Shown here in pieces: positions 7,341 through 45,530 of a DNA stretch of 64,000 bases. Every line of letters begins with the position of its first letter. Position 1 is the first letter of the stretch. The notes under the pieces are model-generated. The model made no database searches. It was not told where the DNA came from and saw only the letters and a program-made list of their open reading frames with translations. The DNA is from Candidatus Nanosyncoccus sp. (GTDB lineage: Bacteria; Patescibacteriota; Saccharimonadia; Saccharimonadales; Saccharimonadaceae): NCBI GenBank assembly GCA_045603965.1, contig JAZUND010000019.1:312-64311 (forward strand). The letters are read 5' to 3'. The position numbers and the translations under genes are program-made.

Positions 7341-7403
7341 ACAAAACCTTTCTAATCAGACTTATTTTTTTATTATAATACCACAAGCCAAAACCATTAA
7401 TAC

Positions 7404-7546
7404 AAAAATGGCACCGCAAGGGTGAAACACTTTAATCACGACATCAAGGCTGACATACGTAATCAAGAACCTTCCGGTGCCAACATTCCGTACGTCAACA
7501 ATACTAAATAAAAGTACCTTGATTCTCAATGATTAAAGTGTTTCAC
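7404..7546 (-). ncRNA. Structured RNA family, copy 1 (about 143 nt)
   Basis: Promoter TTGCGG-17-TATAAT (7552-7580). 17-bp perfect stem 7530-7546/7422-7438. Conserved 3' end CACCCTTGCGGTGCCATTTTTG. Confidence 0.65.
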
Positions 7547-7594
7547 TTACCATTATATATTGAAAAAACATTCTCCGCAAGCTATAATTTAATT

Positions 7595-12696: not shown

Positions 12697-14397
12697 TTAC
12701 TTTAACAATTTTTTGCGGCTAGCAATAAAGTAACCGAGACCAGTCACAGTGAGACCAGCACCCACAGCACCAGCTGCAATTTCTGTCGCACCAGTATCAA
12801 CAATCCGAGTTGGAGTTGGATTTACTGGAGGATTTTCCGGGTCAGTTGGGTCAACAGGACAAGTCTTAGTAGTCACGACTTTAGCGTCGTCCTTCACTAC
12901 CTTAGAATCAATTGTTGCACTTGCCCAGTTTACTAAATCGTTGTTTTTGCCACAAGCGATGTTTTTGTCAACAACCTTAGCGGTAAATCTTACATAAGCA
13001 TTACCGTTGGCTTTATAATCACCAATGTTAATGCCACTTGTCGTTATGGTGTTCTCACTTAACAATTTACCATCTTTATTGTTGGAATTGTAAAGGTAAG
13101 TAGTATTCGCTACATATTCCAAATTTGTAGGCAAAGTATCTGTAATTTTTACATTCTTAGCTTCAGTAGAACCGGTATTGGTATATTCAATCTGGAATTC
13201 GACTTCGTCGCCAATCTTTGCGTCAACAGATTCTTTCCATTCATTCGTACCTTTGATGCGAACAGTCTTAGAAATCTTTGCATCAGCCGTAGCTGGAGTT
13301 ACACACGCAGCGCCATCCACCATCACCGAAGCGTCATCCTTAGAAACTTTAGAGTTTACAGTAGCACTCGCCCAGTTTACAAGCTGACTCTTCTTGCCAC
13401 AAGCAAGATTCTTATTCACTACCTTAGCGGTAAAACGAATGAACGCATTACCTTTTGGACCATAATTACCAATGTTGATGCCATCAGTAGTTAAAGTATC
13501 ATCATTAAGGCGCACGCCATTAGGATTGCTTGAGTTGTAAAGATAAGTTGAGCCAGCAACATATTCTACATTGTCAGGTAAAATATCGCGAATCATCACA
13601 TTCTTAGCTTCCGCAGAACCAAGGTTCTCGTACTCAATCTCGTATTCTACTTCATCACCAACTTTCACGTCCACGGATTCGCTCCAAGTCTTAGTGCCCT
13701 TGATGCGCACTGTATTAGAAAGTTTAGTAGTAATAGAATTGTGTACCTTCACCTGAATCGTCACCTGACCATCATATTCGTAACAACCAGGGATTTTACC
13801 GTCAAGCGCTTCATAACCAATTTTTACGCCAGATGTAATCACATCATTAGAAAGCGCTACAGTGCCAAGCTTAGAATTGGTATATTTTGCAGAACCATCT
13901 ACGTACTCTAGATAGAAATCTTCACTCGAAGTAAGTTTCACTTCATCCCAATAACGATTAGGAGTAGCATTTGAAGAATCGAGGTAGCCTATAATCGTAT
14001 GCTCTTTACCAACCGTAGTAGGCAAAGAGAAAGTCGCATATACATTCTCTGCAATTTTAGCAGTACCCTTAGGGCTGTTGTTGTGGACATAAAGACGAAT
14101 TGTATAGGTTTCGCCATCTTTTACAGTAATTTCGTTAGCTTTCCATACGTTGCTAGTGTCAGTGCTTACCTTAGCACCTACGAAATTCCGCTCGTCACCA
14201 ATTTTACCATTGGTGATAGAGTTGAAAGTAATGGTGTCACCAAGTTTACCCGCATTGATCTCATCAAGCGTATAAACTGGACGGCCATTAGCCGAGTCAC
14301 CCCAAGCAAGCACGCTTGTCGTTGGGACGACGATGCTTGTGCCAGCCACTATTGCAGCAGCCGCCACACTTAAAATAGATTTATAAACTTTATTCAT
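12697..14397 (-). CDS. Secreted surface protein with two DUF11-like repeats and a C-terminal sorting-signal-like tail
   Basis: Signal peptide; two about 135-aa repeats (KLSNTVRIKG...; KISKTVRIKG...); ends IVDTG + hydrophobic helix + RKKLLK. Confidence 0.8.
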   Translation of the reverse strand: MNKVYKSILSVAAAAIVAGTSIVVPTTSVLAWGDSANGRPVYTLDEINAGKLGDTITFNSITNGKIGDERNFVGAKVSTDTSNVWKANEITVKDGETYTIRLYVHNNSPKGTAKIAENVYATFSLPTTVGKEHTIIGYLDSSNATPNRYWDEVKLTSSEDFYLEYVDGSAKYTNSKLGTVALSNDVITSGVKIGYEALDGKIPGCYEYDGQVTIQVKVHNSITTKLSNTVRIKGTKTWSESVDVKVGDEVEYEIEYENLGSAEAKNVMIRDILPDNVEYVAGSTYLYNSSNPNGVRLNDDTLTTDGINIGNYGPKGNAFIRFTAKVVNKNLACGKKSQLVNWASATVNSKVSKDDASVMVDGAACVTPATADAKISKTVRIKGTNEWKESVDAKIGDEVEFQIEYTNTGSTEAKNVKITDTLPTNLEYVANTTYLYNSNNKDGKLLSENTITTSGINIGDYKANGNAYVRFTAKVVDKNIACGKNNDLVNWASATIDSKVVKDDAKVVTTKTCPVDPTDPENPPVNPTPTRIVDTGATEIAAGAVGAGLTVTGLGYFIASRKKLLK

Positions 14398-31296: not shown

Positions 31297-31348
31297 GTTA
31301 CCTCGTTATTAATACCTCCACCCCGAGCGTGCTACATATAATATAATC

Positions 31349-31494
31349 AAAAATGGCACCGCAAGGGTGCAACAACCTAATAACTAGCATCAGTGACCTG
31401 ATTCAGCTAACGGCTTCCTTGCGATGCCATTTTTTTGCTAAACTCAGGTCCTGATACAAAATATCCTGATGCCATTGGTTATTAAGTTGTTGCA
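31349..31494 (-). ncRNA. Structured RNA family, copy 2 (about 146 nt)
   Basis: Extended -10 TG-T-TACAAT at 31500-31508. 17-bp stem 31478-31494/31368-31384 with one G.U. Identical 22-nt 3' end at 31348-31369. Confidence 0.65.
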
Positions 31495-31575
31495 ATACCA
31501 TTGTAACACGAAAAAACGTCTTTGCCATAGACATTTTCTGCTATTTCAAGTTTTCCACAACCAAAAAAGAAAAAG

Positions 31576-41029: not shown

Positions 41030-41788
41030 CTAGTTTTCAGGTTTTCTCAACTTATAGTAAATGGACGGCGCAAATCGAATCGGTGCCAACATCTGTTGAG
41101 CTCTATTTTCCATTTTAACTAGATTTGCCGTACCAAATACTTTCTTGAGCCCCCGACTGCGAAAATTAGACACCGACAAAACTTTCTCTCGCTTAAATCC
41201 AGTTTTTTCAAAAATTTCTTCCACATACTTCGGATGATAATTATAAAATCCGTCCTTTGAAATTTCCTTGTAGTTCGCCACCTTCTTATCAAACGGGTTT
41301 ACTTTACTGCGTCCCGTCACGAACCTTGCCATTTTTGGCAAAGTTCGCTTATTCGCTACTTCAATCACTGCTACTCCACCTGGTTTTAGTACGCGGTATA
41401 GTTCGCCCATCGCTTTATCCATATCTTTGAGATGATGCGTCACTCTTATCATCATCAGCCCATCCAGCTCACCGTCTTTAAACGGCAACTTATAAATATC
41501 ACCCGCCTTAGTTTCTATCTTATCACCATAGATTTCTTTTGCTTGCTCCAGCTCCGTCTTTGAATAGTCAAAAATATAAACTTTCCTCGCTCGCTTCAAA
41601 TATTCATTCGCCAGCCTTCCGTATCCACCGCCAATATCTGCAAACTTTTCCATCCGCTTCGGTAACAACTTCCGAATTGCCATCCTATCCGCCTGATCCT
41701 CATACTCACGATCTACGTCTTCCCAGAATTCTTTTTTATAATCGTAACCATTATAGTCCGAAATAACTTTTTCACTCATAGTTTTCAT
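41030..41788 (-). CDS. Class I SAM-dependent methyltransferase
   Basis: FADIGGGYGRL, GDIYKLPF, LYRVLKPGG. Confidence 0.9.
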   Translation of the reverse strand: MKTMSEKVISDYNGYDYKKEFWEDVDREYEDQADRMAIRKLLPKRMEKFADIGGGYGRLANEYLKRARKVYIFDYSKTELEQAKEIYGDKIETKAGDIYKLPFKDGELDGLMMIRVTHHLKDMDKAMGELYRVLKPGGVAVIEVANKRTLPKMARFVTGRSKVNPFDKKVANYKEISKDGFYNYHPKYVEEIFEKTGFKREKVLSVSNFRSRGLKKVFGTANLVKMENRAQQMLAPIRFAPSIYYKLRKPEN

Positions 41789-41842
41789 TATAGCATTAAA
41801 AATCTATTTTACAAAACCAACATAAGTGTGATATGATTAAAC

Positions 41843-41987
41843 TGTTACAAGTTTACATTTAATTATGGCAGCGATTTTTATATATCGCAGTTTCAAGCAA
41901 TAAATGGCATCGTAAGGAAGCCAAATGTTTGGAACCGCGTACGCTGTGACAAATGTAAGCTTGTAACACCCTTGCGGTGCCATTTTT
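41843..41987 (+). ncRNA. Structured RNA family, copy 3 (about 145 nt)
   Basis: Extended -10 TG-A-TATGAT at 41829-41837. 18-bp stem 41843-41860/41951-41968 with one G.U. Identical 22-nt 3' end at 41967-41988. Confidence 0.65.
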
Positions 41988-42057
41988 GTGCATACTCCAT
42001 TATGATTCATAAGATGGCACCGCAAGGGGGATAGTAACAAAATAAGTGAGGTAAGCT

Positions 42058-43869
42058 ATGCGGTCAATACATCATATCATTCATAAGTATCATCATCCTA
42101 GCACATATTTACTATATGGTTCACTAGGGCTTACTGTTCTTTCTGGGTTTGTTCTATCAAGTTCTGCTACTTATGGTTTGTTTAGTTCTTCTGCTTCTGC
42201 TGTCACTCAAGCCACCTCATCTCGGGCTTCTGTTACTGTATCCTCAACTTGTTCCATGACTGCAACTGTTAATACTGAACATAATGCCACTTTAATTAAT
42301 GGTATGTATTCAGGTAATGATAGTAACTATAATAATGGTATTGGTAAAACCACTATACAGACTTTCTGTAATGATGCTGGTGGTTATGCTATTTATGCTG
42401 TAGGTTTTGGTAATAATGAAGTAGGTAGTAATAAACTACATAGTAATATACTTGGTAGTAACTATGATATTGCTACTGGTACTGCCGAGAGTGGTGATAC
42501 TTCCAACTGGTCTATGAAGGTTACTGCACTTACTGGTACTATAGACGGTGTAGAACAAACCTATGCTCCTACCATTACTAATGACTATGACAAGTATTCA
42601 CCAGTCCCAACGAGTTATACCAAAGTAGCTAGGTTTGATAGACCTACAGACGCAGAAACTATAGGCTCATCCATCACTACTACTTATGCTGCATATATCT
42701 CTCAAACTCAACCAGCTGGTACTTATGTAGGACAAGTAAAGTATGCTCTTGTTCATCCAGGTACTTCTAACGCTCCAGAATCTCTCATCATGCAGAATGT
42801 TGCAGACTGGAAAGAAACCCTTCTAGTAGGTGAAGAAATTGCTGTTACAGATGCAAGAGATGGCAAATCATATACTGTAGCTAGACTTTGTACCAAGGTC
42901 AATTACGACTCTACTTCTGGTCAGTATGAGGCTGGCACCTGTGCTCCTGATGATTTGGAATCTGAAATCTGGATGACTCAGAACCTAGATCTCACTATTG
43001 GTGGAGAATACAATGGTGAACCAATCATTCTAGACAGCAATAATACGGACCTTAACACTGCGGTGACTCCCGAAGGCAACACTATGAAAGATTACAGCAC
43101 AGACGGCGTCACTATTACTTGGGCACCAGGCTCAAATATCCATACGGCTACTAAGATTACTTACCCGGCTACTTCTGGTAATGGTACCGTGGCTGGCTGG
43201 ACTAACACTTATACTGATGCTTATCAAGCTGAAGGCGTGGATGCCAGTGGTAACGAGATGTACAACTATCAAGGCACTAAATACGCTGGTTTGTCTGCTT
43301 GTGAAGCCGCCAATCACACCGAGGCCCAATGTCAGCATTACCATGTAGGTAATTACTACAACTGGTCTGCTTCGGTAGCGATGAGCAACACTGATAATAA
43401 TGCGGCCAACGGTGGTTCCGCTAGCTACTACACAAAGAACTATGTGATGCCGAACTCTATTTGTCCGAAAGGTTGGAGATTGCCGAACGGTCTGACAAAG
43501 GATGAAAACGACGACATAGTGATGTCTGACTTCAACAAGCTTCTCAAGGCTCAGGGTATTACTGGCACTGGCGGTAAAACTGTCGATAATATTACCCGAA
43601 CTGACGGTATAGACTTATATGGTAGTACTAACGTAGGATGGGCTTCGAATGGCTTTAATAAAGTTGGTCTTGCTCCTCTCTATTTCGTTCGCTCAGGCAG
43701 TCTGGGTGGCTCGGCGCTCTATAATTTCGGTACGAGCGGGTACTACTGGTCTAGTACGGTTAGCTCTTCGACGAACGCGTTCAACCTGGGTTACGATTCC
43801 GATGTATTGGTCCTGGCGAACCAGTACAATCGCGGCAACGGCTGGTCTGTGCGTTGTATGGCGCGGTAG
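42058..43869 (+). CDS. Surface protein with C-terminal Fib_succ_major (FISUMP) domain
   Basis: N-terminal TM, DARDGKSYTVARL, WMTQNL, GNYYNWSAS, ICPKGWRLP, GYYWSST, NRGNGWSVRCMAR. Confidence 0.88.
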   Translation: MRSIHHIIHKYHHPSTYLLYGSLGLTVLSGFVLSSSATYGLFSSSASAVTQATSSRASVTVSSTCSMTATVNTEHNATLINGMYSGNDSNYNNGIGKTTIQTFCNDAGGYAIYAVGFGNNEVGSNKLHSNILGSNYDIATGTAESGDTSNWSMKVTALTGTIDGVEQTYAPTITNDYDKYSPVPTSYTKVARFDRPTDAETIGSSITTTYAAYISQTQPAGTYVGQVKYALVHPGTSNAPESLIMQNVADWKETLLVGEEIAVTDARDGKSYTVARLCTKVNYDSTSGQYEAGTCAPDDLESEIWMTQNLDLTIGGEYNGEPIILDSNNTDLNTAVTPEGNTMKDYSTDGVTITWAPGSNIHTATKITYPATSGNGTVAGWTNTYTDAYQAEGVDASGNEMYNYQGTKYAGLSACEAANHTEAQCQHYHVGNYYNWSASVAMSNTDNNAANGGSASYYTKNYVMPNSICPKGWRLPNGLTKDENDDIVMSDFNKLLKAQGITGTGGKTVDNITRTDGIDLYGSTNVGWASNGFNKVGLAPLYFVRSGSLGGSALYNFGTSGYYWSSTVSSSTNAFNLGYDSDVLVLANQYNRGNGWSVRCMAR

Positions 43870-43907
43870 GATAAAATATAAAATAAGCCTTCAATATGAA
43901 GGCTATT

Positions 43908-45530
43908 TTATATCACTCTCGCCACTTCCGCGAGAGTCGTCTCTCCCCTAAGTGCCGCCAACACCCCCTTCTGCTCAAGCGTCAACATCCCATGCTTTTT
44001 CGCAGTTCTTTCAATCACTTCCGTTTGAACATCCATCACGTCTCCACGAATGAATTTCTGAATTTCTTCGTTCACAATCATCTGCTCCATTATCACCATA
44101 CGCCCGGCATAGCCAAAAGGCTCCTCTTCCGTTTCCACTGGCTCATATAATTTAAGTTTCTCCAAATTAATCCCCGTCAGATTTTTTTCACTCACACCTT
44201 CTAATACTTTCCGAACATATTTCACCTCCGATTCGCTTGCCTCTCGTTCCTTCTTCGAATCTGACAGCTTCCGAAGCAATCTCTGCGCCACAATTAGCCG
44301 AATAGAAGAAGCAAAAATCGGATTTACTCCAATTAAGTCAATCATACGCGAGAAAGCCGCACTAGTTGAATTAGCATGAAACGATGACAACACCAAATGC
44401 CCCGTGATTGAAGCCTGTATCGCCGTCTTCGCCGTATCCGCATCACGAATCTCTCCCACCATCACCACATCTGGATCCAGCCGAAGCACCGAACGTAGCC
44501 CCTCCGCAAACGACCCACCATCATTTGTATTTATTGGAATTTGCGAAATACCCGTAATTCCATATTCAATCGGATCCTCAAGTGTAATAATTTTTCTGTC
44601 CGTCGTATTCAGTGCATTTAACATTGAATAAAGCGTAGTAGATTTACCAGAACCCGTCGGCCCCACCATTAGCACCATCCCTCGCGGATGTGAAATCACT
44701 TCATCTATTTCATGTTTCTCACTCTGCGATAATCCTAGTAAATCCAAATTTAATAACGTTTCGTCAAAATTAAAAAGCCTTAGTACTGCATCTTGCCCAT
44801 ACATCGTTGGAATCGTCTCTACACGTATATTCAGAATATGCGTCGCGCCATCACGATGTATTTCCTTTTGCATATGCCCACTTTGTGGTTTATTAGACGC
44901 CGTAGACACATTTGCTCGCGATGACAACTCACCCATGAAAATCCGGTATTTGTCTTTATCAATTTTCGCCACCGGATGCAGAAGTCCATCCACACGCATC
45001 CGAATCCGTATCTCCCCTCGCAAATTCTCAATATGAATATCGCTTGCACCTAACTTATCCGCTTGATCAATCAGGAAATCAAACACTTTTTCCGTTGATA
45101 CAGCATTTAGTGTTTGCGATACCGCCGCAATCGTTTCCGAATCGCCATCACCCGCAATTCTAATATCATCATAATGCACCTCTTTCGGCGGATCATATCG
45201 AAGCATCAATATCCGATATGCTGACCCCGAAATCAAGAAGAAATCCACTCTCTCGCCATCTTCTGTATAGTCATGTCTCATCTTCTGAATTAAAGATCTC
45301 GGCGTTTGGCTCGTCACTAGGAACTGAAAATGTTCTTCTCCACCACCCTTATGTAGCGGCAAAATATAGTTTTTATGCATTTCCGGGATCGTCAGCAGTC
45401 CTTCCGTTAGTGGTACAGTTGCTTCAAATTTTCTCGTATCAAGATAAGGCAGGTTCAATATTTTAGCGCGCTCCGCAGTTGCCCGCTCCTCGCTTTCACG
45501 TCTTTTCTCCTGAATTTCCTGCTCATTCAT
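43908..45530 (-). CDS. Type II secretion / type IV pilus assembly ATPase (GspE/PilB family)
   Basis: ASDIHIE, IRMRVDGLL, GPTGSGKSTTLY, EDPIEY, LRLDPDVVMVGEIRD. Confidence 0.93.
   Translation of the reverse strand: MNEQEIQEKRRESEERATAERAKILNLPYLDTRKFEATVPLTEGLLTIPEMHKNYILPLHKGGGEEHFQFLVTSQTPRSLIQKMRHDYTEDGERVDFFLISGSAYRILMLRYDPPKEVHYDDIRIAGDGDSETIAAVSQTLNAVSTEKVFDFLIDQADKLGASDIHIENLRGEIRIRMRVDGLLHPVAKIDKDKYRIFMGELSSRANVSTASNKPQSGHMQKEIHRDGATHILNIRVETIPTMYGQDAVLRLFNFDETLLNLDLLGLSQSEKHEIDEVISHPRGMVLMVGPTGSGKSTTLYSMLNALNTTDRKIITLEDPIEYGITGISQIPINTNDGGSFAEGLRSVLRLDPDVVMVGEIRDADTAKTAIQASITGHLVLSSFHANSTSAAFSRMIDLIGVNPIFASSIRLIVAQRLLRKLSDSKKEREASESEVKYVRKVLEGVSEKNLTGINLEKLKLYEPVETEEEPFGYAGRMVIMEQMIVNEEIQKFIRGDVMDVQTEVIERTAKKHGMLTLEQKGVLAALRGETTLAEVARVI

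What the first reader, a model, noticed from the sequence alone, without database searches (positions are those of the whole stretch)
41829..42028. RNA family copy 3 carries an extra downstream competitor of the conserved tail
Seen in sequence: stem 41843-41860/41951-41968, plus GCAGCG/CGCTGT and GCAGTTTCAAGCA/TGTTTGGAACCGC. B is at 41902-41917 with two G.U pairs. Only in this copy, a perfect 15-nt complement of the tail (ATGGCACCGCAAGGG, 42014-42028) lies between the U-tract and the ATG, giving B' a third possible partner. The downstream gene has T-ending codons, unlike the C-ending codons of neighbouring + strand genes. Inference: element and gene arrived or were moved recently as one cassette.
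Basis: partly seen in the sequence, partly recalled or inferred. Interest (0 to 1): 0.75.

Follow-up and report, generated by a model that had tools for sequence, protein, structure and literature searches.

The report
Multicopy leader RNA before surface genes
The flagged stretch is one of ten copies of an uncatalogued, strongly folded RNA leader in front of secreted surface-protein genes of a gut Saccharibacterium; it probably acts as a transcription on/off switch, and its "extra" third pairing partner is real but common in the family rather than peculiar to this copy.

Summary
"Only in this copy" holds only for the three copies in the window. The genome has ten copies. Five others also carry a complement of the tail 18 nt after the U-tract. 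Across the genus (Ca. Nanosyncoccus, Saccharibacteria), 51 of 95 leaders have a significant downstream complement of the same strand, and it covaries with the tail.

The element belongs to a genus-restricted family absent from Rfam, with up to 19 copies per genome. It starts at a -10 box and has a roughly 40-bp hairpin (H). A second helix (T) joins the hairpin tip (B) to the tail (B') and is always followed by a U-tract. Both helices show compensatory changes. They interleave, which suggests a terminator/antiterminator switch whose trigger is unknown. The downstream box B'' would capture B' after read-through.

Synteny supports a cassette insertion. pilB and a methyltransferase gene abut in 57 of 76 relatives, and only this genome and its closest relative have the 2.1-kb leader-gene-terminator block between them. 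T-ending codons are a trait of all leader-linked genes, so they say nothing about how recent the insertion is. No transcript data could be obtained.

The parts
41808..41837 (+). Promoter-like site TTTACA-18-TATGAT with a TG extension. The predicted start lies 3-7 nt downstream, at the foot of P1.
   Evidence: A -10 box stands at the same place in all nine aligned copies.
41843..41860 (+). P1 5' arm of the long hairpin H
   Evidence: Family covariation: 96.7% of cells paired, 16 of 17 P1 pairs changed on both sides.
41868..41873 (+). P2 5' arm (GCAGCG), followed by the U-rich bulge 41874-41886
   Evidence: The U-run is conserved in the family alignment.
41887..41899 (+). P3 5' arm
41902..41917 (+). 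Box B at the tip of the hairpin: the 5' strand of helix T, also part of a small apical hairpin
   Evidence: B:B' covariation.
41926..41947 (+). P3 3' arm (41926-41938) and P2 3' arm (41942-41947)
41951..41968 (+). P1 3' arm
41969..41988 (+). Box B' (CCCTTGCGGTGCCAT) plus the U-tract TTTTT: the 3' strand of the terminator-like helix T
   Evidence: Eight exact copies of the 15-mer lie in leaders of the genome.
42014..42028 (+). Box B'', a perfect complement of B'. Together with B' it forms hairpin L (41969-42028), whose 30-nt loop contains the U-tract.
42046..42060 (+). Shine-Dalgarno sequence GTGAGG and the ATG start codon, left unpaired by H and L
42058..43869 (+). 603-aa secreted FISUMP-domain protein gene, rich in T-ending codons
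43886..43904 (.). Bidirectional intrinsic terminator between the convergent FISUMP gene and pilB
41789..43907 (+). The 2.1-kb block inserted between pilB (43908-45530, -) and the methyltransferase gene (41030-41788, -)
7399..7549 (-). Family copy 1, which has no B''
31344..31498 (-). Family copy 2, with only a weak downstream complement

Best explanation
Copy 3 is an ordinary member of a genus-specific, multicopy, cis-acting 5' leader RNA that heads secreted surface-protein genes (mostly FISUMP genes) in Ca. Nanosyncoccus.

The transcript starts at the foot of a roughly 127-nt, 40-bp hairpin (H = P1, U-rich bulge, P2, P3, small apical hairpin). The tip, B, is complementary to the 15-nt tail B' that directly follows P1 and is itself followed by a U-tract.

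Proposed mechanism:
- B:B' plus the U-tract (T) is an intrinsic terminator whose 5' strand is held at the tip of H.
- If H folds first, which is both the co-transcriptional order and the thermodynamic ground state, T cannot form and RNA polymerase reads through.
- A still unknown condition or factor that weakens the inner part of H, or brings tip and foot together, lets T form and stops transcription.
- In more than half of the family, copy 3 included, a box made after the U-tract (B'', sometimes extending over the P1 3' arm) pairs with B' once read-through has happened. This fixes the full-length mRNA as two tandem hairpins: a 5'-terminal stem that should also protect the mRNA, and a free ribosome-binding site.

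Shown here: the copies, their position, both covarying helices, the invariant U-tract, and the recurrence and covariation of B''. Inferred: termination, the default ON state and the locking role of B''.
For: Family and position:
- There are ten copies in the genome.
- Model R1 gives matches in 20 of 37 genomes of the genus, 10-19 copies in nine of them.
- It gives none in 199 genomes of 151 other genera of the order, and there is no Rfam family.
- Each copy lies between a -10 box and an SD plus ORF.

H:
- P1 is 96.7% paired with 611 cells changed on both sides, against 37-43% paired when the partner is slid.
- About 40 bp enclose B in all members.

T:
- It was not part of the search model, yet it is 92.3% paired.
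- 89 cells in 8 of 17 pairs are changed on both sides (for example AU 54 / GC 30, GC 67 / AU 21, UA 68 / CG 16), against 35-52% paired when slid.
- Different B:B' pairs are compensated in cis within one genome.
- A run of U follows B' in every member.

H against T: H is favoured over nested T by 11.8 +/- 6 kcal/mol, and by 5.1 in copy 3.

B'':
- 51 of 95 leaders score z < -3.
- It covaries with B' (CUUGCGG/CCGCAAG, CUCGCGG/CCACGAG, CUCGUGG/CACGAG).
- In another subfamily it covaries with the P1 3' arm (GAACACCC/GGGUGUUC and others).
- The MFE of whole leaders is H plus L with the SD unpaired.
Against:
- T has a loop of about 51 nt, unlike typical terminators, and the simple terminator scan does not report it.
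- H is so much more stable that, without a factor, termination may hardly ever occur.
- No sensor is visible. The interior of H is hypervariable and shows no conserved pocket.
- No trans-encoded B-like RNA exists in the genome.
- B'' lies after the U-tract, so it cannot affect the termination decision itself.
- The strength of L does not correlate with the H-T energy gap (rho = -0.14, p = 0.22), so the lock idea has no quantitative support.
- P1 plus T could coexist as a long pseudoknot, in which case H and T would be only partly exclusive.
Confidence: 0.5

Rival explanations
1. The leader is purely a stabiliser and translation leader. H is a 5'-terminal protective stem for highly expressed surface-protein mRNAs. 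B:B' and B':B'' are alternative folds of the mature mRNA that tune decay (for example RNase III or 5'-end-dependent nucleases) or ribosome access. The U-tract is not used as a terminator.
For: - H begins 0-4 nt from the predicted start. From established knowledge, 5'-terminal stems of this kind prolong mRNA life in the ompA, aprE and ermC leaders.
- The linked genes have the pyrimidine-ending codon bias also seen in EF-Tu.
- H is the ground state by about 12 kcal/mol.
- The MFE of full leaders is H plus L with a free SD.
Against: A stabiliser alone does not explain why a second, interleaved helix covaries. It also does not explain why a U-run follows B' in every member, even where the A-run opposite it is not conserved.
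Confidence: 0.2
2. The leader is a ligand- or protein-sensing riboswitch-like element. A small molecule, ion or RNA-binding protein binds H (the U-rich bulge, junction or apical hairpin) and sets the H/T balance. This refines the best explanation by naming a class of trigger.
For: - There are two conserved, competing helices.
- A conserved U-rich bulge or side hairpin lies midway along H, and the arm lengths are conserved.
- The regulon-like distribution, before 10-19 paralogous genes, fits one shared effector.
Against: Outside B, B', the first bases of P1 and the U-run, hardly any nucleotide is conserved. P2 and P3 differ completely even between orthologous leaders. That is unlike a metabolite-binding aptamer. 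No candidate protein was identified.
Confidence: 0.12
3. Leaders of different loci talk to each other in trans. The exposed tip B of one leader RNA, terminated or full-length, pairs with the nascent tail B' of another. Expression of the surface-protein paralogues would then be coupled or mutually exclusive, and B'' would insulate a transcript's own B'.
For: B' is identical in 8 of 10 copies of this genome and nearly uniform within several other genomes, whereas P1 differs in every copy. B, B' and B'' form one interchangeable set of boxes.
Against: Several genomes hold different B:B' pairs, each compensated in cis (for example AUGACGCC/GGCGUCAU beside AUGGCACC/GGUGCC in G029 and G036). That is what a cis helix predicts. 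Uniformity within a genome can also come from gene conversion among paralogues. There is no direct evidence.
Confidence: 0.08
4. It is a DNA-level element. The inverted 15-bp boxes B, B' and B'' and the palindromic H are recombination sites or a mobile palindromic cassette (MITE, or an invertible or shuffling element), and the pairing reflects DNA rather than RNA function.
For: - The block is inserted at a site that is empty in most relatives.
- In G013 two different leaders join the same gene start, and the ortholog of copy 3 has an entirely different hairpin interior.
- Many copies lie about 114 nt from contig ends.
Against: - The element always has one orientation, directly after a -10 box and before an ORF.
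- G.U pairs are frequent in both helices, which only makes sense in RNA.
- There is no target-site duplication or terminal repeat at the insertion borders.
- The other palindromic insertions in the window are unrelated in sequence.
- No inverted form of the B-B' segment was seen among 97 copies.
Confidence: 0.06

Closest known systems
Terminator/antiterminator attenuators and riboswitch expression platforms of Gram-positive-type bacteria (B. subtilis trp/TRAP, pyr/PyrR, sacB-bgl RAT/LicT, T-box leaders)
   Same: A leader between promoter and ORF. A covarying GC-rich helix is followed directly by a U-tract. An alternative structure uses the terminator's 5' strand (B is also part of the apical hairpin of H).
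   Different: - No recognisable sensor domain or protein-binding motif.
- The terminator 5' strand sits at the tip of a 40-bp hairpin, and its 3' strand directly abuts that hairpin's foot (an a-b-a'-b' interleaved order with a 51-nt terminator loop).
- 10-19 copies per genome in front of paralogous surface-protein genes.
- A third box downstream of the U-tract.
- No Rfam T-box match.
5'-terminal stabiliser stem-loops of abundant envelope-protein mRNAs (E. coli ompA 5' UTR, B. subtilis aprE leader, S-layer gene leaders)
   Same: A very stable hairpin starting within a few nucleotides of the 5' end, in front of highly expressed secreted or surface proteins.
   Different: Those leaders have no conserved, covarying alternative helix followed by a U-tract, and they are not multicopy families.
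HMP-PP (thiS motif) riboswitch with a terminator-embedded aptamer (PMC6478431, seen only as title and abstract)
   Same: The regulatory structure is nested in the terminator hairpin rather than placed upstream of it.
   Different: thiS is a small element with a conserved ligand pocket that controls a thiamin gene. Here the nested part is about 50 nt of hypervariable stem arms and the ligand, if any, is unknown.
Antisense-RNA-driven attenuation (pT181 RNAI/repC, pIP501 RNAIII)
   Same: A loop-presented sequence decides whether a downstream terminator forms. This applies only under the cross-talk rival.
   Different: No separate antisense gene exists, and the complementary boxes lie in the same transcript.

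Membership tests
Any Rfam 15 family | Covariance-model score at or above the family's gathering threshold | tested here: not met
   Across the whole window only tRNAs pass. At E <= 10 on 41700-42150 there are only sub-threshold miRNA/sRNA noise hits caused by the B':B'' hairpin.
T-box leader | Stem I with specifier loop, plus the T-box 14-mer in an antiterminator bulge, as scored by RF00230 | tested here: not met
   There is no T-box hit even at E <= 10. The resemblance of B'' (GUGGCACCGC) to the T-box core GUGGNACCGC is recalled from memory and treated as coincidence. The downstream genes are surface proteins, not amino-acid genes.
Intrinsic (Rho-independent) terminator | GC-rich helix directly followed by a U-tract | tested here: met
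   B:B' is 14-18 bp, at -22 to -33 kcal/mol. It covaries, and a run of at least 4-5 U follows B' in all members.
Intrinsic (Rho-independent) terminator | Short hairpin loop (about 3-8 nt) and actual release of RNA at the U-tract | tested here: not met
   The loop is about 51 nt and holds the 3' arms of P3, P2 and P1. The consensus scan does not list it.
Terminator/antiterminator attenuator | Two evolutionarily conserved, mutually exclusive structures, one of which is the terminator | tested here: inconclusive
   Both helices covary, and B is shared between T and the apical hairpin of H. P1 and T share no bases, however, and could coexist as a pseudoknot. Exclusivity rests on geometry, not on a test.
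Metabolite riboswitch | Conserved ligand-binding core of unpaired nucleotides | tested here: not met
   Outside B, B', the start of P1 and a U-run, nothing is conserved. P2 and P3 are replaced even between orthologous leaders.
5'-terminal mRNA stabiliser stem | Stable stem starting no more than about 4 nt from the 5' end | tested here: met
   The -10 box ends at 41837 and P1 starts at 41843. H is about -49 kcal/mol in copy 3 and -52 +/- 5 across the family. The transcription start is predicted, not mapped, and the effect on half-life cannot be tested here.
FISUMP / Fib_succ_major domain protein (downstream gene) | TIGR02145 score above the curated cut-off | tested here: met
   42.3 bits against a cut-off of 41.65 for 42058-43866, and 42.1 bits for the gene after copy 2. 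Pfam PF09603 scores 36.6 against 33.9 for the C35 paralogue.
MITE / mobile palindromic element | Terminal inverted repeats with target-site duplication, inserted in varied contexts and orientations | tested here: not met
   There is no duplication at the borders of the inserted block. All copies lie directly after a -10 box and in the same orientation as the gene that follows.

The most novel reading that the evidence does not exclude
The leaders form an RNA-level network. Each surface-protein locus displays the same box B on the tip of a locus-specific hairpin and carries the same tail B'. Leader RNAs from one locus could therefore pair with nascent tails of the others and decide which paralogues are transcribed to full length. 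That would be a transcript-based form of coordinated or mutually exclusive surface-protein expression in a bacterium with very few classical regulators. B'' would make a locus immune to this cross-talk.
Probability: 0.08. Interest if true: 0.85.

Novelty: new variant of a known kind. Interest (0 to 1): 0.6.

Why it matters
Almost nothing is known about gene control in Saccharibacteria and other CPR bacteria, which have tiny genomes and few recognisable regulators. A structured leader present 10-19 times per genome would be a dedicated RNA regulon for the cell surface. It stands in front of the secreted lectin-like (FISUMP) proteins that probably mediate contact with host bacteria. It would also be a new terminator architecture, with the 5' strand presented on the tip of a long hairpin. 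The cassette-like mobility of leader plus gene, and the complete replacement of the hairpin interior between orthologous loci, suggest how such surface repertoires are rearranged. For this particular finding the main result is corrective. The third partner B'' is a family feature to be built into any model, not an oddity of one copy.

Tried and rejected
- **Rfam:** gathering and permissive searches found nothing.
- **T-box or tRNA-sensing idea:** this was prompted by GUGGCACCGC. There is no model match and the gene class is wrong, so it was rejected.
- **Mini-ORF in B (AUG GCA YCG UAA):** rejected. At least 16 members have ACG in place of AUG, with the change compensated in B', and there is no SD.
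- **GNRA tetraloop as the conserved feature of B:** rejected. GUAA becomes AUGA in many genomes, with compensation in B'.
- **Trans-encoded anti-B' RNA:** every TGGCACCGCAAGGG-like site in the genome belongs to a leader, apart from one 1-mismatch site at C29:24254, away from any leader.
- **B' pairing with the SD or mimicking the anti-SD:** no convincing complementarity was seen by eye, and the MFE leaves the SD free.
- **L as compensation for a weak H:** no correlation.
- **Donor for the replaced hairpin interior:** none found among 97 leaders or in the genome.
- **Link to the other palindromic insertions in the window (murB, O-antigen ligase):** the sequences are unrelated and model R1 does not hit them.
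- **Leaders in front of FISUMP genes of genomes without R1 hits (G008, G011, G017, G020):** none found in six upstream stretches with filters off. My gene starts there were estimated.
- **The search for related loci and the look-up of encoding contigs with the 603-aa protein:** both returned nothing.

Full report
**1. The observation**

- P1: 41843-41860 pairs with 41951-41968, 18 bp with one G.U.
- P2: GCAGCG (41868-41873) pairs with CGCTGT (41942-41947).
- P3: 41887-41899 pairs with 41926-41938.
- B (41902-41917) is complementary to the tail B' plus the first U's (41970-41985), 16 bp with two G.U.
- ATGGCACCGCAAGGG at 42014-42028 is the exact reverse complement of B' (41969-41983).

It is more than chance. 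The 15-mer and its near-complements occur seven times in the window, against 1.03 expected. RNAfold gives the long hairpin as the MFE, z = -5.2. With the downstream box included, the MFE is two tandem hairpins, z = -7.6. A promoter-like site, TTTACA-18-TGtTATGAT, ends at 41837, so the transcript should begin at the foot of P1. No Rfam family matches.

**2. The family**

The window holds three copies. The 796-kb genome holds ten. All have the same layout:
- a -10 box;
- a P1 stem whose sequence differs in every copy;
- variable inner stems with a U-rich bulge;
- box B at the tip;
- the P1 3' arm;
- the invariant CACCCTTGCGGTGCCATTTTT;
- an SD and an ORF.

I built covariance model R1 from nine copies, using P1 plus two apical pairs. 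Its results:
- more than 120 matches in 20 of 37 genomes of the same genus, with 10-19 copies in nine of them, and one weak hit outside the genus;
- none in 199 genomes from 151 other genera of the order, under strict filters.

Record titles of relatives identify the genus as Candidatus Nanosyncoccus (Saccharibacteria), mostly MAGs from the gut of ruminants and other animals.

The downstream genes encode secreted proteins. Several are FISUMP (TIGR02145 / Fib_succ_major) proteins with a Listeria-Bacteroides repeat. FISUMP genes are also numerous in genomes of the genus without R1 hits. Six sampled upstream regions there showed no leader. The leader is therefore patchily distributed.

**3. Two covarying, interleaved helices**

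I aligned 103 matches to the model, six of them weak reverse-strand or overlapping hits.
- **P1** is 96.7% paired, with 611 cells changed on both sides, against 30-43% paired when the partner is slid (nine-copy version). The alignment was fitted to P1, so it leans that way. The nine-copy MAFFT alignment gives the same picture.
- **B:B'** was not in the model. It is 92.3% paired with 89 double-change cells in 8 of 17 pairs, for example AU 54 / GC 30, GC 67 / AU 21 and UA 68 / CG 16. Slid controls reach 35-52%.

Individual genomes hold distinct B:B' pairs that are compensated in cis, for example AUGACGCC/GGCGUCAU next to AUGGCACC/GGUGCC. A run of U follows B' in every member.

The strand order is P1a, B, P1b, B'. 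B lies at the tip of a rod of about 40 bp, and B' starts directly at its foot. The complete hairpin H and the helix T (B:B') therefore cannot coexist unless the inner stems open or the rod folds back at its U-rich bulge. In nested folding, H beats T by 11.8 +/- 6 kcal/mol, and by 5.1 in copy 3.

**4. The downstream competitor B''**

B'' is not peculiar to copy 3.
- Five other copies in this genome carry GTGGCACCGCATGGG 18 nt after B', inside a block that is nearly identical from B' to the start codon.
- Of 95 leaders with enough downstream sequence, 51 have a complement of the strand [P1 3' arm + B'] that beats 100 shuffles with z < -3, and 36 with z < -4.
- The box covaries with its partner: CCCCUCGCGGUGCCGU with ACGGCACCACGAGGGGG in G015, and ACCUCGUGGUGCCAG with CUGGUCCUCACGAGGU in G019.
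- In the G036/G029 subfamily the complement shifts onto the P1 3' arm and follows its sequence, for example GAACACCC/GGGUGUUC, UAGACACCC/GGGUGUCUA and GAACGCCC/GGGCGUUC.
- The orthologous leader next to the methyltransferase gene in the closest relative, G013, has the same B''. There its first base is G rather than A and the spacer is 3 nt shorter. The "perfect" match of copy 3 thus amounts to one substitution.
- Copy 3's B'' region resembles the type common in G025 (TTTTTGTGCAT...AAGTGGCACCGCAAGGGGG).

In copy 3 the B':B'' duplex is stronger than B:B', about -34 against -26.3 kcal/mol. The SD stays unpaired.

**5. How it most likely works**

The best-supported reading is a transcription attenuator.
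- T plus the U-tract is an intrinsic terminator whose 5' strand is presented on the tip of H.
- H forms first and is more stable, so read-through is the default.
- A still unknown signal would have to weaken the inner stems, or bring tip and foot together, for T to form.
- B'' is transcribed after the decision point, so it cannot change termination. It can only capture B' in read-through transcripts.
- That capture keeps the 5'-terminal hairpin intact and the RBS free. From established knowledge of the ompA, aprE and ermC leaders, such a hairpin should protect the mRNA.

Weak points:
- The terminator loop is 51 nt.
- No sensor was identified.
- The strength of L does not correlate with the H-T gap.

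I put about 0.5 on this mechanism. That the element is a functional structured cis-leader I regard as close to certain. The rivals are a pure stabiliser/translation leader, a ligand- or protein-sensing switch, trans cross-talk among paralogous leaders, and a DNA-level recombination element. They are set out in the rival section with their evidence.

**6. Cassette, synteny and codon usage**

- In 13 of 20 relatives examined through the methyltransferase gene, pilB ends next to that gene's start.
- In 80 further Nanosyncoccus loci fetched through pilB, the gap between the two genes is 2-33 nt in 57 of the 76 that hold both. No leader lies between them in any.
- In this genome, 2.1 kb separates them: promoter, leader, FISUMP gene and a bidirectional terminator at 43886-43904. 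The methyltransferase gene has its own TATAAT just upstream.
- Only G013, whose methyltransferase is 96% identical, shares the arrangement.
- Four other genomes have a leader with a 31-37% identical homologue on the opposite side of pilB.
- No target-site duplication is visible.

The block is therefore an insertion, older than the G000-G013 split. Codon usage does not date it.
- The window has an extreme strand bias at third positions: + strand genes have C3 of about 0.45 and G3 of about 0.07, and - strand genes show the mirror image.
- All eight leader-linked genes of the genome escape this bias and are T3-rich, mean 0.445 against 0.313 +/- 0.048, p = 3.6e-6. This holds on whichever strand they lie.
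- EF-Tu and EF-G lean the same way.

The bias is a trait of the gene family, from expression level or Ser/Thr/Asn/Gly-rich composition. It is not a mark of recent arrival.

**7. Unexplained**

- Four leaders are 96-99% identical between G000 and G013. The ortholog of copy 3 keeps its flanks, P1, B, B' and B'', but has a completely different P2/P3 interior. No donor was found.
- G013 also has a second, unrelated leader joined to the same gene start at a contig end.
- Many leaders in several assemblies lie about 114 nt from contig ends. This points to repeats or population heterogeneity at the leader/gene junction.

**8. Comparison and novelty**

The element works like the terminator/antiterminator leaders of Gram-positive-type bacteria and shares traits with 5' stabiliser stems. 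It fails the membership tests for T-box, for every other Rfam family and for metabolite riboswitches.

Four features have no counterpart that I know of:
- the interleaved a-b-a'-b' architecture;
- the hypervariable but always paired rod;
- the high copy number in front of one class of surface-protein genes;
- the frequent post-terminator box.

I rate it a new variant of a known kind.

Earlier notes of this scan describe the same family in other genomes, with similar readings. They are AI notes, not independent evidence. I re-derived the structure, covariation and distribution here.

Noticed in passing
window 1-64000 (whole contig C19): Third-codon-position strand bias is extreme. Genes on the + strand have C3 of about 0.42-0.53 and G3 of about 0.03-0.11, and genes on the - strand show the mirror image. 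The leader-linked genes and the gene at 12697-14397 are the main exceptions.
   Followed up: partly
L130:1-350 (G013:C12) versus window 41770-42110: The orthologous leader in the closest relative keeps its flanks, P1, B, B' and B'' at about 96-100% identity. The roughly 90-nt P2/P3 interior is completely different, and no donor copy was found.
   Followed up: partly
L046 (G013:C24:19843-20146) and L130 (G013:C12:1-350): Two different promoters and hairpins are joined to the same B'-B''-gene start at two contig ends. Many family copies in several MAGs lie about 114 nt from a contig end. This could reflect gene duplication, strain mixtures or exchange of leader modules.
   Followed up: no
L152, L180, L194 (and L141 = G011:C4): The pilB-methyltransferase junction looks like a hot spot. 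Three or four other genomes carry an unrelated insert of about 2.2 kb there, without a leader or a homologue of the 603-aa protein. In seven loci (L161, L182, L195, L207, L216, L221, L228) the methyltransferase gene is inverted about 0.9-1.5 kb away.
   Followed up: no
window 41787-41814 (- strand): The methyltransferase gene has TTGTAA-16-TATAAT ending 7 nt before its ATG, which suggests a leaderless or nearly leaderless mRNA. The site is divergent from, and overlaps, the leader's promoter.
   Followed up: no
window 43680-43900: A first-stage note (e1-5245403) reports a codon-usage switch in the last 60 codons of the FISUMP gene. Other notes of the scan report DGR templates that target FISUMP proteins in Saccharibacteria. 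I did not test for a template repeat or a reverse transcriptase.
   Followed up: no
   Followed up: partly
G000:C11:17787-17939 (-), outside the window: A tenth, divergent copy (B' = TGGCACGGTGTCGAT with a matching B = ATCGGCATCGTGCC) stands before an 880-aa protein with two FISUMP domains.
   Followed up: partly
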